Below are positions 8,642 to 33,816 of a DNA stretch of 64,000 nucleotides, piece by piece. The stretch spans positions 3,539-67,538 of the forward strand of contig JAGVYF010000001.1 in NCBI GenBank assembly GCA_018303425.1. The letters run 5' to 3'. A program made the position numbers and the translations under genes. Within the stretch, counting starts at the first letter, position 1, and each line of letters begins with the position of its first letter. The stretch is from Candidatus Woesearchaeota archaeon (GTDB lineage Archaea > Nanobdellota > Nanobdellia > Woesearchaeales > JAGVYF01). The notes beneath the pieces are model-generated. The model was not told where the DNA came from and searched no databases. It saw nothing but the letters and a program-made list of their open reading frames with translations.

Positions 8642-8695
8642 AAGGGTATAAAATCTGCAAATATTTATAAACCTAACCTTTTTATCAAATACAAA

Positions 8696-9373: not shown

Positions 9374-9396
9374 TATTCCACTCATGAAAAAATAAA

Positions 9397-10830
9397 TTAT
9401 TTCTTATAAAAAACAAATCTCGATAACAACGAATTAAATCCCCTAACCAATCTTCTCACATCTGCAACACTTCTCATGCTTTTTAAATTTTGAATAATTA
9501 CAGGGATAGAAAAATAATATTGTTTATACATTTTTTTCTGTAAACCAACTAACTCATCTTTTGTTAATGATTTAGTTCTTAATATTGGACCATGGCATCC
9601 GTCAAAATCTTCCCATGAGTTATATTCGAGTAATCCTGCATTTTTTACTTGTTCAAATAATTGAGTGCCTGGAAAAGGCGCTGCAATTGTAAATTGCACA
9701 TAATCTGCGTGAAGTTTTATTGCAAAATCAATTGTCTCTTTAATCGTAGATTTATTCTCATTAGGCAATCCAATAACAAAGCTCCCTGTTGCCCTAATTC
9801 CTGCTTTTTGAGTTAATCTAACTGCTTTTAAGACTTGATCTTTTGTAATTGCTTTGTTAGAATCATTTAAAATATCCTGAGAACCTGATTCAAACCCATA
9901 AAATATTTCTTGGCATCCCGCATTTTTCATCAATTTTAATATTTCATAATCAACAGTATTAACTCTCCCCATACATAACCAGGGCAAATTTAGTTTACGA
10001 TTCATTAATTCATTGCAAAAAACTATTATCCACTGTTTTTTAATGATAAAGGTATCATCATCAAAATAAATTTCATCTACTCCATAATTTTTAACTAAAT
10101 GTTCGATTTCATTAATAACATTTTTTGGATTTCTTTGTCTATGTTTGTGTCCGTACAATGTTTCAGGCCATAAACAAAATGTGCAATGATAAGGACATCC
10201 CCTGCTTGAGATTACTAACCCAGTTCTTTTACCGCCAAAAAATGCTTGTTGATAATTTTCAATTTTAAACTGCTTTCTATCGGGATAAGGTAATTCATCA
10301 ACATTTTCAACATGGGTTATTGGATTTATAGCTATACCGCTCATTGAACGATACACGAGCCCACTAACTTCCTTGAATGATTTTTTGCCTTCAATTGCTT
10401 TGCATAAATCTTTTATAGAAAGGTCAAATTCACCTTTTAATATAAAATCTATAAATGAAAAGTCCTGTATTATATCCGCTGCATAATATGTTACATGTGA
10501 ACCGCATAAAACGACTTTACAGCCAACTTCCCGCTTAATTCTTTTAGCAGTTTCAATGTCATGCAAAATTGAAGGAGTGGATGTTTCTAAGAGAATAAGA
10601 CTGGGCTGCTCTCTTTTCACCCTTTTAACAAATTTAGGGATACCTTCTTCCAAATCAACAGCGTCTAATCCTATAACTTCATAACCTTCCTTTTCCAATA
10701 TAGATACTGCATAAGCTAAGTAGATAGGAAATGTAAGCACTTTATCTCCTCTTCTATGCGGCCAACGTATGTTACTTCTCGTACCATAACCCTCTCCGGG
10801 CCATGGCGGATTTGCTATAATAACTTTCAT
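9397..10830 (-). CDS. B12-binding radical SAM enzyme
   Basis: MKVIIANPP... B12-binding-like N-terminus. SRGCPYHCTFCLW. 477 aa. Confidence 0.8.
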   Translation of the reverse strand: MKVIIANPPWPGEGYGTRSNIRWPHRRGDKVLTFPIYLAYAVSILEKEGYEVIGLDAVDLEEGIPKFVKRVKREQPSLILLETSTPSILHDIETAKRIKREVGCKVVLCGSHVTYYAADIIQDFSFIDFILKGEFDLSIKDLCKAIEGKKSFKEVSGLVYRSMSGIAINPITHVENVDELPYPDRKQFKIENYQQAFFGGKRTGLVISSRGCPYHCTFCLWPETLYGHKHRQRNPKNVINEIEHLVKNYGVDEIYFDDDTFIIKKQWIIVFCNELMNRKLNLPWLCMGRVNTVDYEILKLMKNAGCQEIFYGFESGSQDILNDSNKAITKDQVLKAVRLTQKAGIRATGSFVIGLPNENKSTIKETIDFAIKLHADYVQFTIAAPFPGTQLFEQVKNAGLLEYNSWEDFDGCHGPILRTKSLTKDELVGLQKKMYKQYYFSIPVIIQNLKSMRSVADVRRLVRGFNSLLSRFVFYKK

Positions 10831-10916: not shown

Positions 10917-12032
10917 ATGTACCAAAATCAATTTTCAATGTTTGAAAGAATAGGACATACCATACTTGGAAATCTACCTTTTAGAAACATAATAATTGAG
11001 AATCTGAACAAATTTAGAATTAAACAAATTAAAAAATTAAAAACTCCAATTAATGTTGTATTTTATGTTACAGATGGCTGTAATTTAAGATGCAAGCATT
11101 GTTTTTACTGGAAAAATTTGAAAAATAAAAATGATGAACTTAAAATAGATAAAATTAAAAAAATTGCTAAAAGCTTCAAACACCCATTACATATGTTATC
11201 TTTAACAGGCGGAGAACCTTTTATGAGGCAAGATATTGTTGAAATTTGTAATCTTTTTTACAAATATAATAATACAAAAAGAATTAACATTGCAACAAAC
11301 GGAATACTTACAGGAAAAATAGTTGAAGCTACAAAAATAATATTAAGAAATAATCCCACTAAACGTTTTACGATATTTATATCTTTAGATGGTTTACAAA
11401 GTACTCATGATTCGATTAGAAATTATAACGGCTCATTCGAGAAAGCAATTAAAACTATTAAAGAACTTAAAAAGATTAAAAATAAAAATTTATCTATTTT
11501 TGTTGCAACTACTATTACAGAACAAAATTTTGAAGAATTACCCGAATTAATTCAATTTGTTAAAGCATTAAAAGTTATCCACAAGTTTAATTTATTGAGA
11601 AACAATTCTACTGTGCACAATATTGACCCATCATTACTTCATGATTTTGACCCACAACACGCCAAACTTCCAAAAAATAAAGATCTTGAGAAAGTTTTTC
11701 AAATAATAAAAAATAACGGAAAAAGTATTTCAAACAAAGTTGAAACTTTAAAAATTAAATATTCTATAGATCTACTTAAAAATTTTCACAAAATAAAATG
11801 TTTAGCTACTTTTACAGACATGGTCCTTTTTCCAAAAGGAGATATCTCTGTTTGTGAACCTACTAACTCTTTTGGGAATTTAAAAGATTGGGATTACAAC
11901 GTTTACAAAGCATGGGATTCTAAACATGCTAATAAGAGAAAGTCCAAACTTAAATCATGCTCATGTATTCAATCATGTAACTTGCTTAACTCCATGAAGT
12001 ATGACACAAAAACTCTTAAAAAAATTCTCTAA
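10917..12032 (+). CDS. radical SAM protein with C-terminal Cys-rich (SPASM/twitch-like) extension
   Basis: VTDGCNLRCKHCFY. C-terminal cysteines ...KCLATF...SVCEP...CSCIQSC. Confidence 0.65.
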   Translation: MYQNQFSMFERIGHTILGNLPFRNIIIENLNKFRIKQIKKLKTPINVVFYVTDGCNLRCKHCFYWKNLKNKNDELKIDKIKKIAKSFKHPLHMLSLTGGEPFMRQDIVEICNLFYKYNNTKRINIATNGILTGKIVEATKIILRNNPTKRFTIFISLDGLQSTHDSIRNYNGSFEKAIKTIKELKKIKNKNLSIFVATTITEQNFEELPELIQFVKALKVIHKFNLLRNNSTVHNIDPSLLHDFDPQHAKLPKNKDLEKVFQIIKNNGKSISNKVETLKIKYSIDLLKNFHKIKCLATFTDMVLFPKGDISVCEPTNSFGNLKDWDYNVYKAWDSKHANKRKSKLKSCSCIQSCNLLNSMKYDTKTLKKIL

Positions 12033-18324: not shown

Positions 18325-19752
18325 ATGGCTGAAGAAAGATGTGATGCAGTATTAGTCATCCCCAATCCATATACTGCTGAAGGGATTAATGATACAACAC
18401 ATGAACAACTTTTGGGTATACTTTACATAGGCACATTACTTCAGAAAAATGGATTTAAATGCAAGATTATTGATGCAAAAGTATTAGGTTTATCCAATTC
18501 TGAGATTATTCAACAAATATATGATTTCAAACCTAAACTTATTGGAATAACTTTAGTATCTGTTTCTTATAAAGCAACCAAAGATTTATGTGAAAAAATT
18601 AGAAATTTAGAATTTAGTCCCCGTGTGATTTTAGGGGGACCGCATCCAACTTCATTACCAAAAGAGACATTGGCTGAATTTAACGTTGATGCAGTTGTAA
18701 TCGGCGAAGGTGAACAAACATTTTTAGAAATTGTTAATAACTTGAAAAACAATTTACCTTTATTTCAAAATGTTGCTGGTGTTGCATACAAAGAAAACGG
18801 AGAATTGAAATTTAATTCATCAAGACCCATCAACGCAAACATTGATGAATTACCATTTCCGGACCATAGCATGCTGCCTGATCCTTATTTATATAAACGC
18901 AGAACTAACCAATCTCCTGCAGTTCCAATTTTAACTAGCAGAGGCTGTCCATATTTATGCACATTTTGCAGCCGAGACGTATACAAAAATAAAGTTTTAT
19001 TCAGGACTCCCAAGAATGTAGTTAATGAGATAGATTATTTAGTTGAAACTTTTAAATTTAAACAGATTGATATAATAGATGACAATTTTCTTGTTAATAA
19101 AAATCGTGCAAAAGAAATTTTACAAATGATAATTGAACGTCCTTATAAAATCGCGATAAATCTCCAAAGCGGCGTAAGAGTTGATGCAATTGATGAAGAG
19201 TTACTCATATTTATGAAAAAAGCAGGGGTTTATCGTGTTGCATTAGGGGTAGAATCCGGAGATGAAAGAGTGTTGAAAAATTCTAAAAAAGGCATTAAAT
19301 TAGATGAAGTGAGAAAAGCTGTTAAACTTGTTAAACAGGCAAAGTTAAGAGCAGATTGTTTTTTCATGATAGGTTTACCCGGTGACAATGCCGAAAGCAT
19401 GCAAAGAACAATTGATTTTGCAAAAGAGCTCAAACCAAATACGGCTAATTTTTCAATGACAATACCATTTCCAGGCACTGAACTTTATAGAGAAGCAAAG
19501 GAACATGGACAACTTTTTATTGACACAAGATATGGTCTTGATTCAGGTTATAACGCTGCAAATGTTGCGTATTTGTTAGAAGGAATGGACAAGCAAGAAA
19601 TTTTAAAATATTATAAGAAAGCATACAGAGATTTTTATTTACGGCCTATACAAATATTTAGGATGCTATTGGATGTTAAATCAATAGAAGAATTCAAATG
19701 GTTGATTAAAACTGGCACTTCGGTATTTAAAAGCATATTATTAAAAAACTAA
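18325..19752 (+). CDS. B12-binding radical SAM enzyme
   Basis: N-terminal B12-binding-like region. SRGCPYLCTFCS. 475 aa. Confidence 0.8.
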   Translation: MAEERCDAVLVIPNPYTAEGINDTTHEQLLGILYIGTLLQKNGFKCKIIDAKVLGLSNSEIIQQIYDFKPKLIGITLVSVSYKATKDLCEKIRNLEFSPRVILGGPHPTSLPKETLAEFNVDAVVIGEGEQTFLEIVNNLKNNLPLFQNVAGVAYKENGELKFNSSRPINANIDELPFPDHSMLPDPYLYKRRTNQSPAVPILTSRGCPYLCTFCSRDVYKNKVLFRTPKNVVNEIDYLVETFKFKQIDIIDDNFLVNKNRAKEILQMIIERPYKIAINLQSGVRVDAIDEELLIFMKKAGVYRVALGVESGDERVLKNSKKGIKLDEVRKAVKLVKQAKLRADCFFMIGLPGDNAESMQRTIDFAKELKPNTANFSMTIPFPGTELYREAKEHGQLFIDTRYGLDSGYNAANVAYLLEGMDKQEILKYYKKAYRDFYLRPIQIFRMLLDVKSIEEFKWLIKTGTSVFKSILLKN

Positions 19753-20599: not shown

Positions 20600-21685
20600 T
20601 TAATAATTTTTTCTAAATGAGAATTTAATTAAATTTGTAATTGGAAAAATGAATCTCGGTTCCATAACACATAATTGCATTGCTTTTTTGCATTCCCTAC
20701 ATTTTTTTAATCTTTTCTGTTCACATTTATATGATTTAGACTTTAATACTGATTTAATATTATTATTGCCAATAACCGAATAATTTTGCCAATTTGAACC
20801 ATATAAGCACGGAGAAACCTTCCCGTTCTCAAAAAACTCGCAGAAGAAATACTGTAATTCACAATCTTGCATGAAAATTCCCTCTTTATTTTTACCTAAA
20901 AAATAATCCGGCACGGCTTTGAGATATTTAGGATTATTTAATATTGTTTTTTTCGTTAAGATAAACTTAATAAATTTCTTAACTTCAATAATATTTTGAT
21001 TAATTTCTTTGTTTATTTCACTCTTTGTCTCTTGGCCTTTGAATTCAGGATGCGCGCATATTGCCTGAAATTTCTGTTCGACATCCAATTCATCAGCAAG
21101 CTTAACCAGTTGATATAATTCATTAGTGTTTGTCGGAGTTATAATTGAATTAATAGAAACTCTAACATTGGGGGCATATTTCTTCAAAAGCTTAACCGCT
21201 TCAATTGCCCTGTCATAAGAACCTTTCACACCCGTAGTTTTATCATAGGTTTCTTTTATCCCATTAACACTTATGGATATGGCATCAATTCCAGTTTTTG
21301 ATAATTGCACTGCTTTTTCTTTTGTCATCAAAAAACCATTACTAACCATATGAACAAATGGAATTTTTTTTTTACAATAAGATATTCTTTCCATTATATC
21401 CTGCATTAACAAAGGTTCGCCTCCAGTAAAATTAATATAACATGTACCCATCTTACTTAAATCAGAAATTATTTGTTTAAATTTAGTTAGGGAAATTTCA
21501 TTATTTTTTAGGGGATTCCTCCAAAAATTGCACCATTCGCACCTAAAATTACATCTATGGGTAACATAAAACTGCGCAATCATCGGAAAAGATTTTCCAA
21601 ATAAATAATAATTGATATGCCACTTAAATGCATTATAAAATAATGGAAATATATTAGTCAATTTAAAATTAATTGAAGATGCCAT
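20600..21685 (-). CDS. radical SAM / SPASM-domain protein
   Basis: VTHRCNFRCEWCNFW. C-terminal 7-Cys pattern DC..FC..PC....KC..KKCRECKK..LC. Confidence 0.7.
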   Translation of the reverse strand: MASSINFKLTNIFPLFYNAFKWHINYYLFGKSFPMIAQFYVTHRCNFRCEWCNFWRNPLKNNEISLTKFKQIISDLSKMGTCYINFTGGEPLLMQDIMERISYCKKKIPFVHMVSNGFLMTKEKAVQLSKTGIDAISISVNGIKETYDKTTGVKGSYDRAIEAVKLLKKYAPNVRVSINSIITPTNTNELYQLVKLADELDVEQKFQAICAHPEFKGQETKSEINKEINQNIIEVKKFIKFILTKKTILNNPKYLKAVPDYFLGKNKEGIFMQDCELQYFFCEFFENGKVSPCLYGSNWQNYSVIGNNNIKSVLKSKSYKCEQKRLKKCRECKKAMQLCVMEPRFIFPITNLIKFSFRKNY

Positions 21686-24157: not shown

Positions 24158-25582
24158 ATGTCAGTCGCCAGAAGAATAGCCAAAAATACCTTTTCATTGA
24201 CAGTGGGTGAATTAGTTAGTAAAGCTTTGCTTTTCTTTTTAACTGTGTTAATTGCGAGATATTTAGGCAGTGCTGGATTGGGCAATTATTCGTTCGCAAT
24301 ATCATTCACAGTTTTGTTTTATATGTTAGCTGACATGGGATTAAATAAATTAGCATTAAGAGATTTACCACGAGACAAAACTAAGCTTGGTCAATACTTT
24401 TACAATATCCTAACAATTAAATTTTTCTTATCAATCATCACATTCGTTGCAATAGTGCTTAGTATAAACTTAACCAACCAGCCATATGAAATCAAACTAA
24501 TTGTATATCTCGCAGGTATTTATATGATAATTAGTGAGTCTATAGCAACATTATTCAGGAATGTTTTCGTTTCATTTGAACAGGTAGAATATGAAGCGCT
24601 TGTCACCATAATTGAAAAAATCTTAATTTTTGCACTTGGTTACATATCACTAATCAAGTCCCAAAGTTTATTTTGGCTATTTGTAATGTTTTTAATCGCA
24701 GGAATCATAAAAGCAATAATCGGTTTCATTATTATTATTTACAAGTTTAAACCTAAGTTCTCAATTAATTTTAAAGCCTTTTTACCTTTGATTAAAAATG
24801 CATTTCCATTTAGTTTAACTTATTTATTAGCAACAGTTTACATTAAAGTTGATATTACAATGTTAACTCTCATGAGAAATAGTACTGAAGTTGGCTGGTA
24901 CACTGCAGCTGCTAACTTAATATTTGCTCTTGTTATAATTCCTGCTGTATTTATGAGAGCAGTATTTCCTAATATGACAAGATATTATAAAACTGATAAA
25001 ACGGCATTTATAAGAAGCTGTAGATTGTCATTAAAATATCTAATAATAGTAGGCATGCCTATTTGCATTGGCGGCATAATAACCTCAAAACAGTTAATCA
25101 AATTAATATACGGAGAAGGATTTTCAGAATCAACAATTGCTTTCCAAATTTTACTTGTATTTTTATTTTTATATTTCATTAAATGGGCTTTAAACATTGC
25201 ATTATATGCTGCAGATTTAGAGAAAAAAGTAGTGTGGTCATATTTAGTAGGACTTTTAGTTAATGTTGGACTTAATTTTATTTTAATCCCCATTTGGAGT
25301 TATATAGGGGCAGGAATTACAACAATTATTACTGAGATGATTGTAGTTACTGTAATCTATCACTACTTCATTACAAGAATCAGCAGATTAGTTATCCAAG
25401 ACTATTTAATTAAACCATTAATAAGCGTAGCTATTATGGGATTTGTTATATACTTCCTAGATGAAGCCCCAATTTTGTTAACAATTCTGATAGGAGGAAT
25501 TGTTTATACAATTTCAATTTTATTTTTAAAAACATTAGACAATGAAGATAAAAGATTAATCAGGCAAGTATTAAAAGTTTAA
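24158..25582 (+). CDS. Wzx-type oligosaccharide flippase (MOP superfamily)
   Basis: About 12-14 TM helices. N-terminal IAKNTFSLTVGELVSKALLFFLTVLIARYLG typical of polysaccharide biosynthesis/Wzx proteins. Confidence 0.7.
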   Translation: MSVARRIAKNTFSLTVGELVSKALLFFLTVLIARYLGSAGLGNYSFAISFTVLFYMLADMGLNKLALRDLPRDKTKLGQYFYNILTIKFFLSIITFVAIVLSINLTNQPYEIKLIVYLAGIYMIISESIATLFRNVFVSFEQVEYEALVTIIEKILIFALGYISLIKSQSLFWLFVMFLIAGIIKAIIGFIIIIYKFKPKFSINFKAFLPLIKNAFPFSLTYLLATVYIKVDITMLTLMRNSTEVGWYTAAANLIFALVIIPAVFMRAVFPNMTRYYKTDKTAFIRSCRLSLKYLIIVGMPICIGGIITSKQLIKLIYGEGFSESTIAFQILLVFLFLYFIKWALNIALYAADLEKKVVWSYLVGLLVNVGLNFILIPIWSYIGAGITTIITEMIVVTVIYHYFITRISRLVIQDYLIKPLISVAIMGFVIYFLDEAPILLTILIGGIVYTISILFLKTLDNEDKRLIRQVLKV

Positions 25583-28312
25583 AAAAGATAAAATTTGTGA
25601 AACTGCATCTTCTATCTCGATATTGGTTGTATTTATAATTAGGTTGGCATTTTGCGGTGCCTCATAAGGGTTAGACTCGCTAAAACCAATTAAATTTGTA
25701 ATCTCGCCATTCTTTGCTTTCTCATATAAACCTTTAACATCTCTTTTGGCGCATTCTTCTAAAGGGGTGCTAATAAATAATTCTATAAAATTTTCACCAA
25801 TTAAGTTTCTTGCCATTTCCCTATTCTCTTTGTAAGGGGAGATAATCGGCACAAGAATAAAATCAAATTTTGACTCTTTTTGTTTACATAATTCTGCAAT
25901 TAATTTATTATTCATATAGATGTCTTCTCTTGAAAATCCTAAACTTTTATGCAATGTATTTCGTATAACGTCCCCATCAATAATTTCGGTTTTTTTCCTT
26001 TCAGATTCCAATTTCTTTTTTAACTCTAAAGCAATGGTAGTTTTACCTGAACCGCTCAAACCTGTAAACCAAATAACTTTTGCATTCCTTTTAAATGAAA
26101 CGAAAACTTCTTTATCTTCTTTAATAGCTTCAAGTAACATATTGGATATTTCAGGCCTCATAAACCATGAGGGGGGTTGAACATAATTTATTAACATATT
26201 TCTTGCTTGAGTTCCACTAATCTGAAGCTTATCTTCTTCAGTAAATTGCATTTCTTTTTCATGAATATGTGAATCTAATGATTTTGAATAAAACACTTTG
26301 TCATATATTATTGGCTGAATGCCCAGATCTGGAAATTTATCAAATATTTCATGAGATGCACGCGGGTGATAAAAATCTTTTACGCCCGTATGATCTCTCC
26401 CTACTATAAAATGACTACATCCAAAATTTTTTCTGCAAATTGCAGTGAATATTGCTTCTCTCGGACCGGCATACCTCGAAAATGTAGAAAATGTTCCAAA
26501 TACAACTTTACCTTTAGGATAAATATTTGCCATTAGTTCATAACTTTTGATTATGAATTCTGAATTAAAATCCCCTTCTTTCTTTTGACCAATAATTGGA
26601 TGAATAAATAAACCATCGGCATGTACTTTATACATCGCATCCATTTGCAAAAATTCGTGGCTTCTATGGATAGCATTCCTTGTATGAAAACCTACAATCT
26701 TACTCCAACCTTTTTCCTCAAATATTTTTCTTGCTTGAGAAGGAGTTAGTTCATATTCTTTAAATTTAGAAGGTTTTCTTTTAATTAGGGTAATTTTGCC
26801 TCCTACTAAATATTCATCCATTTTATTTAGCATAATTACTCCTGGATGTTCTATCGAAGTAGTTCCAAACCACTTAACTGCAATTTCATTTTTATTATAA
26901 GTATAAATCTCTTCAACATCAAACAATGCCACAACTTCATCTTCAAACATTAACCCCACTTGTTGACCCTGCAAAAGTTCATTCGCAGTTTGAGAATTAA
27001 TATCAAACAAAATAGGTATGGTCCAAACGACCCCTGTTGAAAGTCTCATATTATTTAAAACAGAATCGAGCTCTTTTTGAGTCATGAATCCTTCTATGGG
27101 ACTAAAAGCACCAATTGCAATTTGTTCTGCGTCCATATATTTATTTTCGTCAATTTTAATTTTGTATAAGCTATCAATATAATTTTGAGATAAAGCTTTC
27201 TTTAACATACGATTTACTAATCTGCCTCCGTGCGCTTTAACCAAGTTTCCTGCAATGGTCTCACTAGAAATATAATTTAATTCCTCCAATCTTTTTAAAA
27301 CCGAATCGCCATTATCAATATCAATATTCGTTACTAATTCAGAATGCTCAACTAACTTAGCCAGCATTTTAACACATTCAAGAGGATATTTTCCTACTGC
27401 CGTTTCACCTGCCAGAACTAAACCTTTGGCACCATCCAAAATAGTGTTAATAACATCATTAGCTTCAGCCCTTGTTGGAGTTCTTTTTTCACTCATTGAT
27501 TCTAGAAGGTTAGTTGCAACAAAAACCGGAATTTTAAAATTTGAAGCAGTTTTAATAATAATTTTTTGAGTTAAGGGAATACGTTCAATAGAGATTTCTT
27601 TTGATAAATCTCCTCTATCGATTAAAATAAAATCCGAAAGTTCAATAATTTCATTTAAATTCGCCAAAGCTTTTTTACTTTCCACTTTAGAGATTATTTT
27701 GACTTTATTTCCTAAAACCTTTTTAACTTCTTTAACATCATCACTTGAATTCATAAAAGAAGCAGCAACATACTTAATTCCGTTTTCGATAGAATATCTT
27801 AATATTTCTTTATCTTGTTCAGAAAGCGAGGGCAATTCTCTTTTAACACCATACCTATCAGTTACTACGACACTTTTATTTCTACCCATTACCCCCCCAT
27901 TAACAACTTTTGCTCTAACTTTATCACCGATTATTTCTATTACTGAAAGAAGCAATGCATCAAAATCAATTGAAATCATATCTCCTGGCTCAAGTTGTTT
28001 TACCATTTCACTGGGCCAAAGATTAATCTCTTTATTGTTGCCTCTGATATTACAACCTGTAATTAATACATAATCACCCTCTTCAAAAGCAGCAACAGAT
28101 TTTTCTAAATCCCCTGTTCTAACCTGGGCACCCGCAGTATCAATAATCAATGGAACACCAACTTGTTCGCACAATGGAATTGCTTTTTTGACATAATCTA
28201 ATCCAACATGAGAAGTATTAATTCTTGCAAAAGTCATTCCGCTAGCTTTCATCTCCTGCAATATTTCAACAGTATCACAACTGGGGCCGAGTGTACAAAC
28301 AATGTCAACCAT
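25571..28312 (-). CDS. trifunctional fusion: pyruvate-kinase-like domain + sulfate adenylyltransferase (ATP sulfurylase) + adenylylsulfate kinase
   Basis: N-terminal DIVCTLGP...ARINTSHV...DTAGAQVRTG...IISKVESK...IDRGDLSKEI...TPTRAEANDV...AGETAVGKYP (PK barrel motifs). Middle GFHTRNAIHRSHE...GRDHTGV (ATP sulfurylase). C-terminal VIWFTGLSGSGKTT (CysC P-loop). Confidence 0.8.
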   Translation of the reverse strand: MVDIVCTLGPSCDTVEILQEMKASGMTFARINTSHVGLDYVKKAIPLCEQVGVPLIIDTAGAQVRTGDLEKSVAAFEEGDYVLITGCNIRGNNKEINLWPSEMVKQLEPGDMISIDFDALLLSVIEIIGDKVRAKVVNGGVMGRNKSVVVTDRYGVKRELPSLSEQDKEILRYSIENGIKYVAASFMNSSDDVKEVKKVLGNKVKIISKVESKKALANLNEIIELSDFILIDRGDLSKEISIERIPLTQKIIIKTASNFKIPVFVATNLLESMSEKRTPTRAEANDVINTILDGAKGLVLAGETAVGKYPLECVKMLAKLVEHSELVTNIDIDNGDSVLKRLEELNYISSETIAGNLVKAHGGRLVNRMLKKALSQNYIDSLYKIKIDENKYMDAEQIAIGAFSPIEGFMTQKELDSVLNNMRLSTGVVWTIPILFDINSQTANELLQGQQVGLMFEDEVVALFDVEEIYTYNKNEIAVKWFGTTSIEHPGVIMLNKMDEYLVGGKITLIKRKPSKFKEYELTPSQARKIFEEKGWSKIVGFHTRNAIHRSHEFLQMDAMYKVHADGLFIHPIIGQKKEGDFNSEFIIKSYELMANIYPKGKVVFGTFSTFSRYAGPREAIFTAICRKNFGCSHFIVGRDHTGVKDFYHPRASHEIFDKFPDLGIQPIIYDKVFYSKSLDSHIHEKEMQFTEEDKLQISGTQARNMLINYVQPPSWFMRPEISNMLLEAIKEDKEVFVSFKRNAKVIWFTGLSGSGKTTIALELKKKLESERKKTEIIDGDVIRNTLHKSLGFSREDIYMNNKLIAELCKQKESKFDFILVPIISPYKENREMARNLIGENFIELFISTPLEECAKRDVKGLYEKAKNGEITNLIGFSESNPYEAPQNANLIINTTNIEIEDAVSQILSFLNF

Positions 28313-29708
28313 TATTAATTATCCTTCCCCGAAAATCTTCAGATTTATTTATCCCAAATATTGATAAAATTGTCGGGGTTACATCGTATATGCTAATTTG
28401 GCCAATATCGCCCAAATTAGGAGTCGCTGGTCCTGCCATTACAAAAGTTCCCAATGGGGCATGTCCTGCATCATCACTTCCTGTTGTAGTCGCCCATGAA
28501 TATAACCCTTCATTACCAACATCATTATTAACACCGCATTTGAGATTATCAAAATATATCATAATATCCGGTGATTCTTCTGCAAACTCACCATGATATA
28601 TTTCCTGGGGCAAGTAAATTTTATTGTCCATTTTATTCCCATTATCATCCTTGATTAGTTTTAATTTGTCTGAAATTTCTTTCTGCAACAAATCATATTC
28701 TTCAAGTGTAACTATTCCTTCTGGCTCACGGCCTTCTAAATTGAAATATAATCTTGCAAAATATGCCCCCACTGAAAATACTCTAGTTTTTGACCAATCG
28801 ATATTAGACATTTTTAGTTTGACTGGTTCAGTTAATTTTTGTTTTAAAACTAAATAGCCTTCTTTTATTAACCAGTCATTCATATTAAACCTGCAATTCA
28901 TTTTATCCATCCCGTGGTCAGAAGAAACAATTATATTTACATCATCCGGCAATATTTCTAAAATCTTACCAAGTTGCGTATCTATATATTTAAAATAATC
29001 AATTAAAACCGTTTTGTATTTTGTATCTCCTTTATAATACCGGTGACTTTTATCTATATAACTCCAAAAATAATGTTCCAACCTATCTGAACCAATTAAA
29101 ACACAGGTAATAAAATTCCATTGCTTATTTTTTATAGCATCAAAAACTAAATCAAAATTTTGCTTAGTCATCTTATAAACTTTTTCAATCAATTCATCTT
29201 TTCCTTCAGTTTTATAAGAAGCCAGACCTACATTAACATCAAACATATAATTCGGAATTTTTTGCTTAATTTCTTCAAGGTAAGATATGGGGTAAATACT
29301 TTTTTCATCTAAATCCGGAGCTAAAAAACCAGATACCAGATGACAATTAGGAAATTGTTTTTCAATGGGATATATTAAAGGCACATTTAATACAATGCTT
29401 TTTAAGTTATTTTTTGATAAAATTTCCCATATCATTTCTGTTCTTACATCTTTTGAGCTCACAAGTCTTGAAGCAGAATATGCAAAACCATCCCTAATTG
29501 TATAACTATAAACACCATGTTGACTTGGGTCCTTCCCTGAAAAAAGACTAGTCCAAGCAACGCAAGTTGAGGGGGGCACTGTAGTCTCAATTTTTGCGTA
29601 TAAACCCCTTTGCATTAATTTTTTAAGATTAGGCAAATCTTTTAGCCACTCACCAAAAACATATTGCGGCGGGGCTCCATCAATCCCTAAAAGAAATAAT
29701 TTAGTCAT
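28305..29708 (-). CDS. alkaline-phosphatase-superfamily protein (type I phosphodiesterase/nucleotide pyrophosphatase family)
   Basis: LLGIDGAPPQY...TTVPPSTCVAWTSLFSGKDPSQHGV (Thr-nucleophile NPP-like motif). DHG region. No TM helix. Confidence 0.6.
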   Translation of the reverse strand: MTKLFLLGIDGAPPQYVFGEWLKDLPNLKKLMQRGLYAKIETTVPPSTCVAWTSLFSGKDPSQHGVYSYTIRDGFAYSASRLVSSKDVRTEMIWEILSKNNLKSIVLNVPLIYPIEKQFPNCHLVSGFLAPDLDEKSIYPISYLEEIKQKIPNYMFDVNVGLASYKTEGKDELIEKVYKMTKQNFDLVFDAIKNKQWNFITCVLIGSDRLEHYFWSYIDKSHRYYKGDTKYKTVLIDYFKYIDTQLGKILEILPDDVNIIVSSDHGMDKMNCRFNMNDWLIKEGYLVLKQKLTEPVKLKMSNIDWSKTRVFSVGAYFARLYFNLEGREPEGIVTLEEYDLLQKEISDKLKLIKDDNGNKMDNKIYLPQEIYHGEFAEESPDIMIYFDNLKCGVNNDVGNEGLYSWATTTGSDDAGHAPLGTFVMAGPATPNLGDIGQISIYDVTPTILSIFGINKSEDFRGRIINNG

Positions 29709-29711
29709 TTT

Positions 29712-29963
29712 TTAATCCAAATAGCCCAAACTTCTTAATCTCTCTTTAACTTTTTTTTCGTCTTCTTCTGAAAATGCTTCCTTCATTTCAGTTTTTTTTT
29801 CAACGGATTCGGCATTAGAAAGAACTTGTCTTAAAACATAAGTAACATAACTTGAAACTGAATTAAAGCCTGTTCCTTCCATCCTTTTTTTAATTTTATC
29901 TGCTAATACTTTTGGTACTGAGATAGTAGTTATATTTGATTCACTCATAATAATCCCCCCCAT
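29712..29963 (-). CDS. ribbon-helix-helix (CopG-like) DNA-binding protein
   Basis: TISVPKVLADKIKKRM...SVSSYVTYVLRQVL fits a beta-strand/helix/helix RHH pattern. 83 aa. Tandem repeats in its upstream region. Confidence 0.5.
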   Translation of the reverse strand: MGGIIMSESNITTISVPKVLADKIKKRMEGTGFNSVSSYVTYVLRQVLSNAESVEKKTEMKEAFSEEDEKKVKERLRSLGYLD

Positions 29964-30067: not shown

Positions 30068-31615
30068 ATGATGAAAAAAAGACTAGCAGTATTTGGGATG
30101 GATGGATCTCGTTTGGATGTAGTAAAAAAATGGGTAGACATTGGGTATCTTCCAACAATTAAAAAAATTATTGAAAAGGGAGTGTCTGGAGAAATAAAAA
30201 GTTTACTGCCCGGACCGCATTCATTTTCGGCATGGACCTCCTTTGCAACAGGCACCAATCCGGGCAAACATGGTTTGTGTTACCCTGTTGTGCCTGATTT
30301 TAAAAACCAAAAGTTGCAATTCATTAACTCCACACATATAAAAAACAAAAAAATTTGGAACTATTTGTCAGAGGATGGTAAAGTTGTTGGAATAATGGAT
30401 TTACCTATTCTCTATCCCGTAGAACCTTTAAACGGTATAATGGTTTCATCATGGGGTACGCCTGCACTTGAAAGTGAATATACTTATCCCGGTGATATTA
30501 AACATATAATGGACAATTTTGAAGCCGGAACAATTGCAAACTGCTATGAAAGATCAAATCAGGCTTTGAATAATTTATATCGGGCCACCAATCAAAAATT
30601 TAACTCAATTAAATGGTTTTTTAATAATTATGATTGGGATTTTTTTGCTAATGATTTTATTGAACCGGAACTATTGCATCATCTTTATTCACCTTATCTA
30701 GATATAACACATGAACAGTATAATCCCAATTATGAAACTATTATTCGGGATTACTATATAAAAATGGATAAATTCTTCGCAGAAATTCTTCAAATGTATC
30801 CCGAATTAAATATAATCATAATGTCAGATCACGGACATTGCGCAAATAAGGAATATGTTTATGTAAATAATATCTTAGCAAAATATGATTTTTTTTATAA
30901 AAGTAAAATCAATGTTTCTCAAAAAAATAAAGTTTATCATGGCATAATTAAACAGTTAACAAATTTATATCTCCAAATTCCCATTTCAGTCAAAAAAGAA
31001 TTTAATAAATTAATTCCTAAATTTTTCGCGGATAAAGTAAAACACAAAAAAACATTAGACATTAATTGGGATAAAAGTATTGCATTTTGCTTACAATTAG
31101 GAATGGTATATATAAATCGGTCATATGGTGATATTCAAAATGGAAAAATAAGTGTAGAAGATACGACGCATAAAGTTTTTGAAGCATTAAAAAATGATGA
31201 AATTATGAAAACAAAAGTAAGAGGGCTCTATTTAAAAAAAGACCTGTTTAATGGGCAAAATCAAGATACGTTGCCGGATATAGTTATTGATTTTTATGAT
31301 GATTACAAGATTAATACAGGAACGCCGGAAAATATTTTTAGTGAAAAGATTAAAAGTAATCAACCAACAAGCCACACAATGGATGCTATGTTTTTAGCTT
31401 ATGGTCCAGAATTTAAAGAAGGCTTAAAAATTAAAGGCCGGAGTATAATGGACATAATGCCCACAATTATGCATTTTTTTAATTTACACATTCCTAAAGA
31501 AGTAGACGGGGTAATTATGAAAGAGATTTTTAAAAAATTTGAAGACAATAAAATAAAAGTCAAAGGGAGAGAAGAGTTAATACTGAATCAAGCAATAAAA
31601 GGAGTTAGGATATGA
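30068..31615 (+). CDS. alkaline-phosphatase-superfamily protein (type I phosphodiesterase/nucleotide pyrophosphatase family)
   Basis: LAVFGMDGSRLD...LLPGPHSFSAWTSFATGTNPGKHGL. MSDHGH metal motif. Paralogous to 28305..29708. Confidence 0.6.
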   Translation: MMKKRLAVFGMDGSRLDVVKKWVDIGYLPTIKKIIEKGVSGEIKSLLPGPHSFSAWTSFATGTNPGKHGLCYPVVPDFKNQKLQFINSTHIKNKKIWNYLSEDGKVVGIMDLPILYPVEPLNGIMVSSWGTPALESEYTYPGDIKHIMDNFEAGTIANCYERSNQALNNLYRATNQKFNSIKWFFNNYDWDFFANDFIEPELLHHLYSPYLDITHEQYNPNYETIIRDYYIKMDKFFAEILQMYPELNIIIMSDHGHCANKEYVYVNNILAKYDFFYKSKINVSQKNKVYHGIIKQLTNLYLQIPISVKKEFNKLIPKFFADKVKHKKTLDINWDKSIAFCLQLGMVYINRSYGDIQNGKISVEDTTHKVFEALKNDEIMKTKVRGLYLKKDLFNGQNQDTLPDIVIDFYDDYKINTGTPENIFSEKIKSNQPTSHTMDAMFLAYGPEFKEGLKIKGRSIMDIMPTIMHFFNLHIPKEVDGVIMKEIFKKFEDNKIKVKGREELILNQAIKGVRI

Positions 31616-32337
31616 CTTATTTAAAAAAAGAAATTAAATATCTTAAACAAATTTTAACACGAGAAGAAATAAAATACTATAATTTCCACAAAAAGAGATA
31701 TTTAGACATATTACAATCCATTCATATTAATAAAAATGTTAAAATATTGGATTTGGGGTGCAGTAATGGGCATTTATTACTTATATTAAAAAAATTAGGA
31801 GCTGATGTGTGCGGGGTTGATTATACGGATAAGTGGAAAGAAAGATTCAAAAAATATGGAATTATGTTTAAAAAATGCAATATAGAGTCAGATCCCCTCC
31901 CGTATTTAGACGATACTTTTGATTATGTAATGATGAATGAGGTTATTGAACATCTGGTAAAAGAGATAAATTTACCAATTAAAGAATGTAAAAGGATATT
32001 AAAAAAAAATGGAAAATTGATTATATCTACGCCCAATGCATGTGAATTAGGCAAAAGGTTATTATTCTTATTGGGCAAGAATATTTATTGGGATATAAAT
32101 ACATTTTATGAGAGGGGAATTTATGAAAGGCATAATAGAGAATTCAGCATGGATGAATTAAAATTTATACTTAAAATAAATGGATTTTCAAAATTTAAAA
32201 GCAAATATCTTTCTTCATGGGAAGGGTTGAGACAAATTGAGAAAAATAATCCTTTAGCAACAATTATTTCAATGATTCAAAAAATATTTCCTAAATTTAG
32301 ATCAAATCTTCTTATAATTGCGAATAAGTCAAATTAA
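31612..32337 (+). CDS. class I SAM-dependent methyltransferase
   Basis: Motif I ILDLGCSNGH. 4-nt overlap with the upstream AlkP-family gene. Confidence 0.7.
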   Translation: MTYLKKEIKYLKQILTREEIKYYNFHKKRYLDILQSIHINKNVKILDLGCSNGHLLLILKKLGADVCGVDYTDKWKERFKKYGIMFKKCNIESDPLPYLDDTFDYVMMNEVIEHLVKEINLPIKECKRILKKNGKLIISTPNACELGKRLLFLLGKNIYWDINTFYERGIYERHNREFSMDELKFILKINGFSKFKSKYLSSWEGLRQIEKNNPLATIISMIQKIFPKFRSNLLIIANKSN

Positions 32338-33816
32338 TTTTTCATATTCCCTTAATATTAAAACTAAAACCTTTCTTAAAAAAACCTTTGGTTGAGTTAA
32401 ATAAGTTTTCCAATTGCTCTTGAAATTCCGAATCATATATTTATATGGCATTGGCTTTTTGATTAAATTAAAATTATAATCTATGTAGTAATAATTTTTA
32501 CAATGTATTTTTTTAGGTTTAAACTGGTTTGTTAATGGAACTATTAAAATATCTGAAAAATCAGGTTTATCTGATAATTTAATCTCCGCCGCAGGGAATA
32601 GTAATTTAAATCCATTTAATACTACTGAATTAAACAAATTATTAGAACTTCTCAAAATAGATAAATGTTTAAATTTATTTTTTAAAAAAATAAATTTCAA
32701 TTTTTCAGCCATAAATTCTGCATGAAAATTAAGTAAATCCTCTTCCTGATTAAAAAATTCATTTTTAAATTTAAAAATTAAGTTTTTATATATAATATTT
32801 GAAATTTGGTTAATTTTTTCATATGGATCTTTAACCATGTCGTAAAATTCAAAATTATTGTGTCCATTAGATTGTATGACCAATTTGTATTTTCCATTGT
32901 GCAGCGCCGTTTTTTTATTTTTTTGAAAATAATTCCTCGTATCAACACGGAAAAATCTTTTTGGGGACTTTACATTTTTCAAAGGCAATGGTTTTGAAAA
33001 ATAAGGACACCCAAATGATGCATTAATCTCTAGATGATTTAATAAAGTGGGCGCAATGTCTAAAGTTGATACTGGAGTTGTAACTTTTAATCCTTTTTCG
33101 CACCCCGGATAAATTAGTATTAACGGCACTTTAATATTATCATTTGTTATAAATAAATCATGACCTTCTAAAGTTTTTTGTAGCCTTGTCCGGTTATTTT
33201 GCTTATCTTTTGAAGGCCAACCATGATCCGCCCATACAATTACAATTGAATTGTCCATATAACCCCTATTTTTTAAAAAATCAAACATCTTTTTTGCATC
33301 CGCTAAAGAATCATCACCTTTAATTGGAGTAAAAGAATATTGAAGATAAAGTAAAAAAGGATTACTTAATTTATTTTTAGCTAAAAGAGATTTAGTTAAT
33401 CTATTGATTTCTTTGCTATTCCACATGTACTTATAATCTTTAACATTTTTAGGAAAATATTTTTTTTTAATTGGAAACATCATCTTTTTCAAATTTTTCC
33501 TGACCGGCAGATAGAACAAACTTGAATAAATCTTATATTTGCTAGACTTTAATAACTGAAAAAAGGGTTTAAATTTGGAATAATCAATTTGTAAATCTTC
33601 AAAAGATCTGGCAAAATACGAGGAAGGATAACCCACCATTACACTACTGATTGATAATACCGTGCTGGGAAAAGCGGTATAAGCATTAGTATATTCTATA
33701 CCTTCCTTAGCCCATTCATCCAAATAATCCGGCCTATCTTTATAGTCCCCATATTCTTTTGTAGGTCTAATTCCATCCAGATGGAACCATATAATATTTT
33801 TATATTTCTTTTTCAT
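32329..33816 (-). CDS. sulfatase-like hydrolase/transferase (AlkP superfamily, PF00884-like)
   Basis: NIIWFHLDGIR N-terminus. WADHGWP metal-binding motif. No canonical C/S-x-P-x-R formylglycine motif seen (TAFPSTV instead), so possibly a Thr-nucleophile transferase. Confidence 0.5.
   Translation of the reverse strand: MKKKYKNIIWFHLDGIRPTKEYGDYKDRPDYLDEWAKEGIEYTNAYTAFPSTVLSISSVMVGYPSSYFARSFEDLQIDYSKFKPFFQLLKSSKYKIYSSLFYLPVRKNLKKMMFPIKKKYFPKNVKDYKYMWNSKEINRLTKSLLAKNKLSNPFLLYLQYSFTPIKGDDSLADAKKMFDFLKNRGYMDNSIVIVWADHGWPSKDKQNNRTRLQKTLEGHDLFITNDNIKVPLILIYPGCEKGLKVTTPVSTLDIAPTLLNHLEINASFGCPYFSKPLPLKNVKSPKRFFRVDTRNYFQKNKKTALHNGKYKLVIQSNGHNNFEFYDMVKDPYEKINQISNIIYKNLIFKFKNEFFNQEEDLLNFHAEFMAEKLKFIFLKNKFKHLSILRSSNNLFNSVVLNGFKLLFPAAEIKLSDKPDFSDILIVPLTNQFKPKKIHCKNYYYIDYNFNLIKKPMPYKYMIRNFKSNWKTYLTQPKVFLRKVLVLILREYEKLI

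What the first reader, a model, noticed from the sequence alone, without database searches (positions are those of the whole stretch)
25571..28312. Pyruvate-kinase-like domain fused to ATP sulfurylase and APS kinase (913 aa) inside the glycan island
Seen in sequence: one uninterrupted ORF whose first ~330 aa carry the pyruvate kinase A-domain motif series (DIVCTLGP, ARINTSHV, DTAGAQVRTG, ISKVES, DRGDLSKEI, TPTRAEANDV, AGETAVGKYP). These are followed by ATP sulfurylase (HRSH, GRDHTGV) and then CysC (GLSGSGKTT). Established: Sat-CysC fusions are known. APS kinase consumes ATP and releases ADP. PK regenerates ATP from PEP plus ADP. Inference: a PEP-driven, self-recycling PAPS synthase that pulls the unfavourable sulfurylase reaction. 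Its position beside a Wzx flippase and AlkP/sulfatase-family genes suggests the glycan is sulfated via PAPS. I am not aware of this tripartite architecture being described.
Basis: partly seen in the sequence, partly recalled or inferred. Interest (0 to 1): 0.85.

Follow-up and report, generated by a model that had tools for sequence, protein, structure and literature searches.

The report
Pyruvate-kinase-fused PAPS synthase module
A DPANN archaeon encodes one protein joining a pyruvate kinase to the two enzymes that make the sulfate donor PAPS; this undescribed but widespread design probably recharges ATP from PEP on the spot for glycan sulfation.

Summary
Window 25571-28312 (-) is one intact 913-aa ORF carrying a complete pyruvate kinase A+B barrel without the C-terminal regulatory domain, then a PUA-like domain, ATP sulfurylase and APS kinase.

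It is not an assembly artefact. The identical protein lies on 21 contigs from independent samples. At least 85 protein clusters share the architecture.

The invariant core is PK-Sat. It occurs in many bacterial and archaeal phyla, including cultured Ensifer, Sinorhizobium, Mesorhizobium, Lacipirellula and Salsipaludibacter. APS kinase is fused, adjacent, fused to CysQ, or absent nearby.

All PK catalytic residues are invariant across the family. The family also carries its own second-shell signature.

This PK clade is also found fused to APS kinase alone, and to the AlkP-type enzyme encoded just upstream here (NPP-PK, NPP-PK-Sat). One 1680-aa protein reads NPP-PK-Sat-APSK-PHP.

In relatives, PAPS-dependent sulfotransferases lie within 3 kb in 34 of 50 loci. 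This window has none; it has a pair of NPP-like genes instead.

Best reading: a PEP-driven, ADP-scavenging PAPS factory for glycan sulfation. The biochemistry is untested. I found no paper describing it.

The parts
25571..28312 (-). Whole ORF, 913 aa: PK barrel, PUA-like, ATP sulfurylase and APS kinase
   Evidence: An identical protein is on 21 independent contigs. AF2 model: mean pLDDT 88.6, pTM 0.71.
27371..28306 (-). Pyruvate kinase A+B barrel (aa 3-314), with no C-terminal regulatory domain
   Evidence: PF00224 E 3e-72, full profile. Aligns with E. coli PykF residues 5-348, E 1e-55. R30, N32, S34, H35, D58, T59, R65, K146, K209, E211, D235, T267 and E303 are invariant or nearly so in the family.
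27239..27370 (-). PK-Sat linker (aa 315-358), including the 'LKRLEELNYIS' motif
   Evidence: This is the lowest-confidence stretch of the model, pLDDT 66-76. A similar motif, L..L(G/N)Y(I/L), ends free-standing short PKs, NPP-PK proteins and the small upstream ORF.
26777..27238 (-). PUA-like N-terminal domain of ATP sulfurylase (aa 359-512)
   Evidence: PF14306 E 2e-44.
26129..26758 (-). ATP sulfurylase catalytic domain (aa 519-728)
   Evidence: PF01747 E 2e-72. TIGR00339 scores 363 bits against a cutoff of 323, and NF003166 scores 424 against 387. Aligns with 8a8d and 2gks. HTRNxIHRSHE and GRDHTG are invariant.
25634..26080 (-). APS kinase domain (aa 745-893)
   Evidence: PF01583 E 5e-49. TIGR00455 scores 177.7 bits against a cutoff of 138.7. 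The P-loop GLSGSGKT, DGD, ISP and RDxKGLY are conserved.
28305..29708 (-). NPP-1: cytoplasmic AlkP-superfamily (PF01663) enzyme. Its stop overlaps the fusion's ATG by 8 nt (ATGGTTGA).
29712..29948 (-). Conserved 78-aa ORF. It looks ribbon-helix-helix-like on my reading, which is untested.
   Evidence: Homologues occupy the same position in L005, L098, L100 and L101. No Pfam or PDB match.
30068..31615 (+). NPP-2: second PF01663 paralogue, divergently transcribed
   Evidence: A second NPP paralogue was detected in every NPP-type locus.
32329..33816 (-). Third AlkP-like gene, matching the Pfam 'Sulfatase' C-terminal part. Its membership of the module is uncertain.
   Evidence: The sequence has FPSTV at the nucleophile position and no C/S-x-P-x-R motif.
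24158..25582 (+). Wzx-type flippase, convergent, overlapping the fusion's 3' end by 12 nt (context)
   Evidence: Wzx lies within 10 kb in 21 of 50 related loci.

Best explanation
The gene encodes a real three-enzyme PAPS factory. ATP sulfurylase makes APS and PPi from ATP and sulfate. The C-terminal APS kinase phosphorylates APS to PAPS and releases ADP. The N-terminal pyruvate kinase module has lost the allosteric C domain but keeps every catalytic residue. I infer that it converts this ADP, and ambient ADP, back to ATP at the expense of PEP. That would keep local ATP high and ADP low; ADP binds the sulfurylase in the same mode as APS and forms part of the dead-end E-ADP-APS complex of APS kinase. 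Net reaction: ATP + PEP + sulfate -> PAPS + PPi + pyruvate. The gene is translationally coupled to an AlkP-type enzyme (NPP-1) that belongs to the same machine. NPP-1 most likely removes a by-product: PPi, or alternatively pAp. The PAPS probably feeds sulfation of the cell-surface glycan made by the surrounding island. Shown: the architecture, its conservation, intact active-site residues and the gene-fusion and neighbourhood network. Inferred: PK activity, its substrates, the role of NPP-1 and the acceptor.
For: Domains and thresholds. End-to-end alignment with Aquifex Sat-APSK 2gks and with PykF. PK catalytic residues are invariant across about 200 fused members. The same PK clade is fused to each pathway enzyme in turn: PK-Sat (117 clusters), PK-Sat-APSK (85), PK-APSK (P0244, P0308), NPP-PK (P0152, P0155, P0390), NPP-PK-Sat (P0334, P0388) and NPP-PK-Sat-APSK-PHP (P0391). 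Context in 50 loci with at least 5 kb of flank: sulfotransferase within 3 kb in 34, APS kinase fused or within 1 kb in 25, and CysQ directly downstream in CPR loci. In L009 and L102 APS kinase is fused to CysQ. No second PK lies nearby. Published kinetics on ADP and APS inhibition, and on APS channelling in Sat-to-APSK-ordered fusions: PMC3734648. Precedent for fusing a 'pull' enzyme (PPase) to Sat: PMC2275785.
Against: There is no biochemical evidence for any member. The PK clade carries invariant second-shell changes near the K+ and phosphate sites: rabbit A293->D, E118->Q, K115->E, G298->S, I299->K/R and Q329->N. These could mean altered cation dependence or altered substrates. In 20 of 50 loci no APS kinase lies within 10 kb, so ADP recycling from APS kinase cannot be the only rationale. 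PK cannot shift the sulfurylase equilibrium directly. This window contains no recognisable sulfotransferase or CysQ, so the fate of the PAPS here is unknown. TIGR01064 and the bifunctional Sat/APSK equivalog NF004040 both score below their cutoffs.
Confidence: 0.6

Rival explanations
1. The PK-like module is catalytic but re-tasked. It would use PEP, or another phosphoryl donor, with an acceptor other than ADP (for example AMP, pAp or GDP). Alternatively it works with NPP-1 in a PPDK-like salvage: AMP + PPi -> ADP + Pi on NPP-1, then ADP + PEP -> ATP on PK. That would close the whole adenylate cycle of sulfation.
For: Clade-specific invariant substitutions lie around the active site. PK is fused directly to NPP-1 in several lineages, and NPP-1 is fused to PPi-releasing enzymes: Sat, a PF01507 domain and an NTP_transferase. 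AlkP-superfamily enzymes work through a phospho-Thr/Ser intermediate that can in principle be transferred (established knowledge).
Against: All residues that bind PEP, Mg2+, K+ and the nucleotide phosphates in canonical PK are retained. No precedent is known for a PK acting on AMP or pAp, nor for an AlkP-type PPi:AMP phosphotransferase.
Confidence: 0.2
2. The PK domain is a non-catalytic sensor or scaffold. It would be a PEP- or ADP-binding regulatory domain gating sulfate activation by energy state, like the APS-kinase-like allosteric domain of fungal ATP sulfurylase.
For: There is precedent for a degenerate kinase domain acting as an allosteric module on Sat (P. chrysogenum 1i2d, top structural hit). 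The PK C domain is lost.
Against: The metal ligands E211 and D235, the catalytic K209 and T267, and R30, R65 and K146 are invariant over about 200 divergent sequences. That is more than ligand binding alone would be expected to require. Degenerate regulatory domains usually lose such residues.
Confidence: 0.08
3. It is simply the organism's housekeeping glycolytic pyruvate kinase that happened to fuse to Sat, with no functional coupling.
For: DPANN and CPR genomes are reduced and rich in fusions. Whether a second PK exists in this genome could not be checked.
Against: The same clade occurs in large-genome cultured bacteria (Ensifer, Mesorhizobium, Lacipirellula), which from general knowledge have ordinary pyk genes. 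It always sits in sulfation or glycan clusters. It is fused independently to APSK, Sat and NPP-1. It lacks the regulatory domain and forms a signature-defined clade apart from canonical roughly 470-aa PKs.
Confidence: 0.07
4. The ORF is an assembly chimera or read-through artefact.
For: Raw reads were not inspected. The closest relative (P0012, 65% identical) has APS kinase as a separate gene.
Against: The identical 913-aa ORF is present in 21 contigs from different runs and assemblers. At least 85 clusters have the same architecture. A rough NJ tree suggests that the Sat|APSK junction has been fused or split at least 8 times.
Confidence: 0.01

Closest known systems
Bacterial bifunctional ATP sulfurylase-APS kinase (Aquifex aeolicus, PDB 2gks)
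   Same: The domain order is the same: PUA-like, Sat, then APSK. Window residues 381-911 align end to end with it (E 6e-99). This order is the one for which APS channelling is reported (PMC3734648).
   Different: It has no PK module. NF004040 scores 434 bits against a cutoff of 669, so the window protein is not an equivalog.
Metazoan PAPS synthases PAPSS1/2
   Same: One polypeptide makes PAPS from sulfate and 2 ATP. APS and ADP inhibition are central to its kinetics.
   Different: The domain order is opposite (APSK N-terminal). There is no ATP-regenerating domain and no channelling.
Sat-pyrophosphatase and APSK-Sat-PPase fusions of diatoms, haptophytes and oomycetes (PMC2275785, PMC3734648)
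   Same: The same design principle applies: an enzyme that removes a by-product is welded to the thermodynamically unfavourable sulfurylase.
   Different: The helper there is a soluble inorganic PPase acting on PPi. Here it is a pyruvate kinase acting on ADP/ATP, with an AlkP-type enzyme (NPP-1) as the candidate PPi remover.
CysD-CysN(-CysC) GTP-coupled sulfate-activating complex
   Same: It is another way of spending an extra high-energy phosphate to drive APS formation. It co-occurs with the PK fusion in L004.
   Different: The sulfurylase fold is unrelated (PF01507 plus a GTPase). The energy comes from GTP hydrolysis, not from PEP.
Canonical pyruvate kinase (E. coli PykF 1pky; rabbit PKM1)
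   Same: It has the A+B barrel, 35-39% identity, and all catalytic, Mg2+, K+ and nucleotide-phosphate ligands.
   Different: The window protein has no C (allosteric, tetramer-interface) domain. Clade-specific changes are A293D, E118Q, K115E, G298S, I299K/R and Q329N. TIGR01064 scores 300.9 against a cutoff of 306.4.
Penicillium chrysogenum ATP sulfurylase with APS-kinase-like allosteric domain (1i2d)
   Same: It is the best overall structural match for the Sat-APSK part.
   Different: There the C-terminal domain is a non-catalytic PAPS sensor (established knowledge, not tested here). Here the P-loop and the DGD and ISP motifs are intact.

Membership tests
Pyruvate kinase (EC 2.7.1.40; PF00224, TIGR01064) | A-domain TIM barrel with inserted B domain | tested here: met
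   PF00224 covers profile 5-328 of 328, E 3e-72. The AF2 model matches PykF and PKM chains over about 336 columns.
Pyruvate kinase (EC 2.7.1.40; PF00224, TIGR01064) | Catalytic and ligand residues (rabbit R73, N75, S77, D113, T114, R120, K207, K270, E272, D296, T328, E364) | tested here: met
   R30, N32, S34, D58, T59, R65, K146, K209, E211, D235, T267 and E303 are present, and invariant or nearly so in the family.
Pyruvate kinase (EC 2.7.1.40; PF00224, TIGR01064) | C-terminal alpha/beta regulatory domain (PF02887) and full-length equivalog score | tested here: not met
   There is no PK_C hit. TIGR01064 scores 300.9 bits, below the cutoff of 306.4, matching profile positions 4-341 of 476 only.
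Pyruvate kinase (EC 2.7.1.40; PF00224, TIGR01064) | PEP + ADP -> pyruvate + ATP activity | not testable with these tools
   Requires an enzyme assay.
ATP sulfurylase, Sat type (PF14306 + PF01747; TIGR00339) | Domain pair above curated cutoffs | tested here: met
   TIGR00339 scores 363.1 against 322.95, and NF003166 scores 423.8 against 387.
ATP sulfurylase, Sat type (PF14306 + PF01747; TIGR00339) | RNxxHxxH and GRDHxG active-site motifs | tested here: met
   HTRNAIHRSHE 543-553 and GRDHTG 638-643 are invariant in 120 relatives.
APS kinase (PF01583; TIGR00455) | Score above cutoff, with intact P-loop and DGD and ISP motifs (catalytic, not an allosteric remnant) | tested here: met
   TIGR00455 scores 177.7 against 138.7. 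GLSGSGKT, DGD, ISP and RDxKGLY are conserved.
Bifunctional Sat/APSK equivalog (NF004040, PRK05537) | Whole-protein score at or above the curated cutoff | tested here: not met
   It scores 434.3 bits against a cutoff of 669. The architecture is the same but the sequence is divergent and carries an extra N-terminal PK.
Metazoan-type PAPS synthase | APSK N-terminal, Sat C-terminal | tested here: not met
   The order here is Sat then APSK.
Sat-inorganic pyrophosphatase fusions | A soluble PPase domain in the polypeptide | tested here: not met
   No PPase family appears among the Pfam hits. The resemblance is one of logic only.
NPP / AlkP superfamily (for neighbour NPP-1) | Bimetallo site plus Thr/Ser nucleophile, and the NPP fold | tested here: met
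   PPSTCVAW in NPP-1 and FPSTVLS in the protein encoded at 32329-33816 show no CxPxR motif.

The most novel reading that the evidence does not exclude
The window encodes part of a previously unrecognised, self-contained 'sulfation metabolon' that runs on PEP. A dedicated C-domain-less PK clade, Sat, APS kinase, a pAp phosphatase (CysQ or PHP) and a new AlkP-superfamily enzyme (NPP-1) would form one machine. In some genomes they are literally one 1680-aa protein. In this reading NPP-1 has a new activity. One possibility is a PPi-consuming step, either an AlkP-type pyrophosphatase or a PPi:AMP phosphotransferase feeding PK, which would close the adenylate cycle. The other is that NPP-1 and NPP-2 replace the missing PAPS-dependent sulfotransferase in DPANN loci, which would make them a new class of sulfotransferase.
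Probability: 0.25. Interest if true: 0.85.

Novelty: new variant of a known kind. Interest (0 to 1): 0.68.

Why it matters
Sulfate activation is a textbook uphill reaction. Known solutions are PPi hydrolysis, APS phosphorylation and GTP coupling through CysN.

A pyruvate kinase built into the sulfate-activating enzyme would be a fourth, PEP-coupled solution. It would also be an unusual case of an ATP-regenerating enzyme hard-wired to a biosynthetic one.

The family is large and phylogenetically broad. It is carried by cultivable, genetically tractable bacteria (Ensifer adhaerens, Sinorhizobium chiapasense, Mesorhizobium amorphae, Lacipirellula limnantheis), so the idea is directly testable.

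It also points to sulfated surface glycans as a common trait of CPR bacteria and DPANN archaea. These organisms live attached to hosts.

It gives the first functional context for a large uncharacterised AlkP-superfamily clade, which JGI labels 'predicted AlkP superfamily phosphohydrolase/phosphomutase'.

Practically, a one-protein, PEP-driven PAPS generator would be useful for enzymatic sulfation.

Tried and rejected
- **Sulfotransferase and CysQ in the window.** I scanned every ORF of at least 100-120 aa with Pfam. I also searched all stop-to-stop frames with HMMs built from 60 neighbouring sulfotransferases and 9 CysQ proteins, at E<=10. Nothing was found.
- **NPP-1 and solved structures.** Sequence search of NPP-1 against the PDB gave no hit. 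NCBIfam gave only sub-threshold noise. Only the fold search was informative.
- **The small ORF.** It has no Pfam hit, and PDB hits were insignificant. The ribbon-helix-helix reading is therefore unverified.
- **Annotated record for a cultured carrier.** The PLSDB record of Ensifer adhaerens has no features under the match. I located PK-Sat and APS kinase there with my own HMMs instead.
- **Literature.** Seven full-text searches found no paper on a PK-sulfurylase fusion or on sulfation in CPR. Co-occurrences of the terms were coupled-assay uses of PK. The library is open-access only, so absence is not proof.
- **Model coordinates.** AF2 coordinates are not exposed to scripts. Distances between active sites and the position of K238 relative to the K+ site could not be measured.
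- **Second PK in the genome.** Whether this genome has another PK could not be checked from a 64-kb window.
- **Correction of my own mapping.** I first mapped the catalytic Thr to T280 in PTRAE. The alignment to PykF shows it is T267 in ATNLLE.
- **Rejected readings.** I rejected the chimera reading. I also rejected the sulfatase reading of the neighbouring genes.

Full report
**1. The observation**

Window 25571-28312 (minus strand) is a single ATG-initiated ORF of 913 aa with no interruption. Pfam places four domains on it:

| Domain | Residues | E-value |
|---|---|---|
| Pyruvate kinase barrel (profile 5-328 of 328, so A and B domains) | 3-314 | 3e-72 |
| PUA_2 | 359-512 | 2e-44 |
| ATP-sulfurylase | 519-728 | 2e-72 |
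| APS_kinase | 745-893 | 5e-49 |

The PK C-terminal regulatory domain is absent. NCBIfam agrees:

- The Sat models pass their curated cutoffs: TIGR00339 scores 363 against 323, and NF003166 scores 424 against 387.
- The APS kinase model passes: TIGR00455 scores 178 against 139.
- The full-length PK model misses narrowly (TIGR01064, 300.9 against 306.4), because only positions 4-341 of 476 are matched.
- The bifunctional Sat/APSK equivalog is not reached (434 against 669).

**2. Not an artefact**

The identical protein (P0001) is named by NCBI 'sulfate adenylyltransferase [Candidatus Woesearchaeota archaeon]'. It is encoded on 21 contigs from different sequencing runs and assemblers, always with the same neighbours.

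The homologue search returned more than 100 clusters at 46-57% identity with the same four Pfam domains. Most of those with a source name come from CPR bacteria (Paceibacterota, Yanofsky-, Sung-, Falkowbacteria, Minisyncoccia) and DPANN archaea. By my own HMM typing of the fetched proteins there are 85 PK-Sat-APSK and 117 PK-Sat clusters.

The AF2 model is confident: mean pLDDT 88.6, pTM 0.71. Only the PK-Sat linker (aa ~320-360) is weaker. Foldseek finds PK chains and Sat(-APSK) chains separately, and no solved structure covers both (TMq at most 0.43).

**3. Anatomy of the three enzymes**

*Pyruvate kinase part.* It aligns with E. coli PykF residues 5-348 (E 1e-55). Mapped through that alignment, the ligands and catalytic residues of canonical PK are all present, and are invariant or nearly so across about 200 fused relatives. 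The mapping, with rabbit numbering first and the window residue second:

| Rabbit PK | Window protein |
|---|---|
| R73, N75, S77, H78 | R30, N32, S34, H35 |
| D113, T114 | D58, T59 |
| R120 | R65 |
| K207 | K146 |
| K270, E272 | K209, E211 |
| D296 | D235 |
| T328 | T267 |
| E364 | E303 |

The clade also has its own invariant second-shell signature, which canonical long PKs in the same search mostly lack:

- A293 becomes D (DRGDL).
- E118 becomes Q and K115 becomes E (DTEGSQIRTG).
- G298-I299 becomes S-K/R.
- Q329 becomes N (ATNLLE).

I read this as a distinct PK subfamily. Its chemistry is probably conventional, but its cation dependence or fine specificity may differ.

*Sat-APSK part.* It aligns end to end with the Aquifex bifunctional enzyme 2gks (E 6e-99) and with the M. 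thermolithotrophicus Sat 8a8d. It keeps the HxxH and GRDHxG motifs, and the P-loop, DGD and ISP motifs of a catalytic APS kinase.

**4. Distribution and variable architecture**

With my own ORF calling and HMMs, true tripartite ORFs are essentially confined to CPR- and DPANN-type loci.

A roughly 720-790-aa PK-Sat protein is far more widespread. It occurs in Chloroflexota, Acidobacteriota, Planctomycetota, Actinomycetota, Alphaproteobacteria, Elusimicrobia, Omnitrophota, Nitrospinota, Bdellovibrionota and Verrucomicrobiota.

Cultured carriers include:

- Lacipirellula limnantheis I41, Salsipaludibacter albus AS10 and Mesorhizobium amorphae.
- Megaplasmids of Ensifer adhaerens and Sinorhizobium chiapasense.

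APS kinase takes several forms:

- Fused, as in the window.
- A separate gene immediately downstream, as in the closest relative L005 (65% identity) and in Mesorhizobium and Ensifer.
- Fused to CysQ, as in L009 and L102.
- Not within 10 kb, in 20 of 50 loci.

A rough NJ tree needs at least 8 fusion or fission events at the Sat|APSK junction. PK-Sat is therefore the constant core.

**5. Genomic context**

Among 50 non-redundant loci with at least 5 kb on both sides, the counts are as follows:

| Neighbour | Loci out of 50 |
|---|---|
| PAPS-type sulfotransferase within 3 kb | 34 |
| APS kinase fused or within 1 kb | 25 |
| Wzx within 10 kb | 21 |
| NeuB within 10 kb | 15 |

In CPR loci the gene is directly followed by an Inositol_P/CysQ-type pAp phosphatase.

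The association is with sulfation of glycans, not with cysteine synthesis. The window itself is a glycan island containing:

- GT1, GT2 and GT4 glycosyltransferases.
- A Wzx flippase.
- Two UDP-sugar dehydrogenases.
- Epimerases and aminotransferases.
- Several B12/radical-SAM enzymes and methyltransferases.

**6. What is different in this window**

No sulfotransferase or CysQ is detectable anywhere in the 64 kb, even at E<=10 with custom HMMs. Instead the fusion is preceded by four other genes:

- A cytoplasmic AlkP-superfamily gene (NPP-1, 28305-29708) whose stop overlaps the fusion's ATG by 8 nt.
- A conserved 78-aa ORF (29712-29948).
- A divergent paralogue (NPP-2, 30068-31615).
- A third AlkP-like gene (32329-33816).

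These are not sulfatases. They carry a Thr/Ser nucleophile and no CxPxR motif.

The same NPP pair plus the small ORF flanks PK-Sat in L005, L090 and L103. It also flanks a free-standing Sat in L098-L101. All six distinct NPP-type loci lack sulfotransferase and CysQ, against 35 of 48 other loci that have a sulfotransferase. A hypergeometric test gives p of about 0.001, not corrected for phylogeny.

**7. Fusion network**

The C-domain-less PK clade and NPP-1 are recombined with every enzyme of the pathway (Pfam-verified):

| Architecture | Examples |
|---|---|
| PK-APSK, without Sat | P0244, P0308 |
| NPP-PK | P0152, P0155, P0390 |
| NPP-PK-Sat | P0334, P0388 |
| NPP-PK-PUA-Sat-APSK-PHP in one 1680-aa protein | P0391 |
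| Sat-NPP | P0392, P0393 |
| NPP-PAPS_reduct domain | P0398 |
| NTP_transferase-NPP | P0394 (Pfam-verified); P0395 from the precomputed domain list |

Free-standing 324-376-aa PK barrels of the same clade also exist. PHP-family enzymes are known pAp phosphatases (Cv1693, cited in PMC8268124).

This network is strong Rosetta-stone evidence that PK, Sat, APS kinase, a pAp phosphatase and NPP-1 act together.

**8. Mechanism**

*Established chemistry.*

- Sat: ATP + sulfate gives APS + PPi, which is very unfavourable.
- APS kinase: APS + ATP gives PAPS + ADP.
- PK: PEP + ADP gives pyruvate + ATP.

*Published kinetics (PMC3734648).*

- APS kinase is trapped in a dead-end E-ADP-APS complex.
- ADP binds Sat in the same mode as APS.
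- APS channelling has been shown for fusions in the Sat-to-APSK order.

*Inference.* The fused PK scavenges ADP and returns ATP at the site of use. This makes the kinase step PEP-driven and relieves ADP inhibition. It pulls the sulfurylase only indirectly, through APS kinase. PK-APSK fusions support the ADP-recycling link. The PK-Sat core and the loci without APS kinase suggest that ATP supply or ADP removal at Sat matters as well.

*NPP-1.* The simplest common denominator of its fusion partners is PPi release: Sat, a PF01507 domain that could be CysD-like, and a sugar nucleotidyltransferase. I therefore favour a PPi-removing role. This would be analogous to the Sat-PPase and APSK-Sat-PPase fusions of diatoms and haptophytes (PMC2275785). 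Alternatives are a pAp phosphatase, a PPi:AMP phosphotransferase feeding PK, or a replacement for the missing sulfotransferase. None of these is tested.

**9. Comparison and novelty**

The Sat-APSK half works like, and is homologous to, the Aquifex-type bifunctional enzyme. The added PK is, as far as seven full-text searches show, undescribed. Reviews of Sat fusions list APSK, PPase, APR and the CysN GTPase, but not PK.

The sequences themselves are abundant in public databases under generic names. This is not a new sequence family. It is an unrecognised variant of sulfate-activating enzymes with a built-in ATP-regenerating module, embedded in a larger conserved module.

I rate it 'new variant of a known kind', with interest 0.68. 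The enzymology is readily testable in cultured carriers.

**10. Caveats**

- No biochemistry exists for any member.
- The library of papers is open-access only.
- Context statistics use my own ORF calls and HMMs, and the loci are not phylogenetically independent.
- MAG taxonomic labels may be unreliable.
- The NJ tree has no support values.
- Whether this genome has another PK, a PPase or a sulfotransferase elsewhere is unknown.

Noticed in passing
window 28305-29708 (-) and 30068-31615 (+); loci L005, L090, L098-L101, L103: A pair of uncharacterised cytoplasmic AlkP-superfamily (PF01663) paralogues accompanies PK-Sat or Sat in a subset of DPANN loci; those loci have no sulfotransferase or CysQ. 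NPP-1 is found covalently fused to PK, PK-Sat, PK-Sat-APSK-PHP, Sat, a PAPS_reduct domain and an NTP_transferase. Its function is unknown; candidates are PPi removal, pAp hydrolysis or sulfotransfer.
   Followed up: partly
window 29712-29948 (-): A conserved 78-aa ORF lies between the two NPP genes. Homologues occupy the same position in L005, L098, L100 and L101. The pattern TISVP..LADKIKK..SVSSYVTYVLRQVL looks ribbon-helix-helix-like, but there is no Pfam or PDB support. A 119-bp divergent intergenic region separates it from NPP-2.
   Followed up: partly
window protein aa ~338-348 (nt ~27270-27300); C-termini of P0152, P0155 and P0262; small ORF C-terminus: A short motif, (K/R)L..L(G/N)Y(I/L), recurs at the C-terminus of free-standing and NPP-fused PK barrels, in the PK-Sat linker, and at the C-terminus of the 78-aa ORF. 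It may be a docking tail.
   Followed up: no
window 32329-33816 (-): This gene hits Pfam 'Sulfatase/SGSH_C' only over its C-terminal part. It has FPSTV at the nucleophile position and no CxPxR motif, so it is probably not a formylglycine sulfatase.
   Followed up: partly
window 53-967, 5171-6580, 9397-10830, 10917-12032, 18325-19752, 20600-21685: The glycan island has an unusual density of radical-SAM genes: six in total, three with B12-binding domains, interleaved with SAM methyltransferases. This suggests extensive C-methylation or other radical tailoring of the glycan.
   Followed up: no
L004 (1.03-Mb CPR contig) 3048-9972: The same cluster carries two PAPS_reduct (PF01507) genes plus an EF-Tu-type GTPase gene, which I read as a possible CysD/CysN set. 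It also has a separate APS kinase and a sulfotransferase directly upstream of the PK-Sat-APSK fusion. That could amount to two sulfate-activating systems side by side.
   Followed up: no
P0310 (1051 aa, representative library): This protein has two tandem PK barrels. Its C-terminal region looks like an adenylate kinase by eye (not scanned). If so, it is another case of PK fused to an adenylate-handling enzyme.
   Followed up: no
L102 4599-7448: A 949-aa protein combining a cytidylyltransferase-like domain with PPDK_N and PEP-utilizer domains lies 2.5 kb upstream of a PK-Sat gene. It is a second PEP-dependent enzyme in a glycan cluster.
   Followed up: no
P0005 (1341 aa) and P0092 (1019 aa): Two further architectures were seen. 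P0005 reads Sat-APSK-PK-Sat, with two sulfurylases in one ORF, which may be read-through of two genes. P0092 is a nucleotidyltransferase fused N-terminally to PK-Sat.
   Followed up: partly
window 52903-56078 (-): Archaeal-type PheRS alpha and beta subunits and about 30% GC are consistent with the Woesearchaeota label attached to the identical protein P0001.
   Followed up: no
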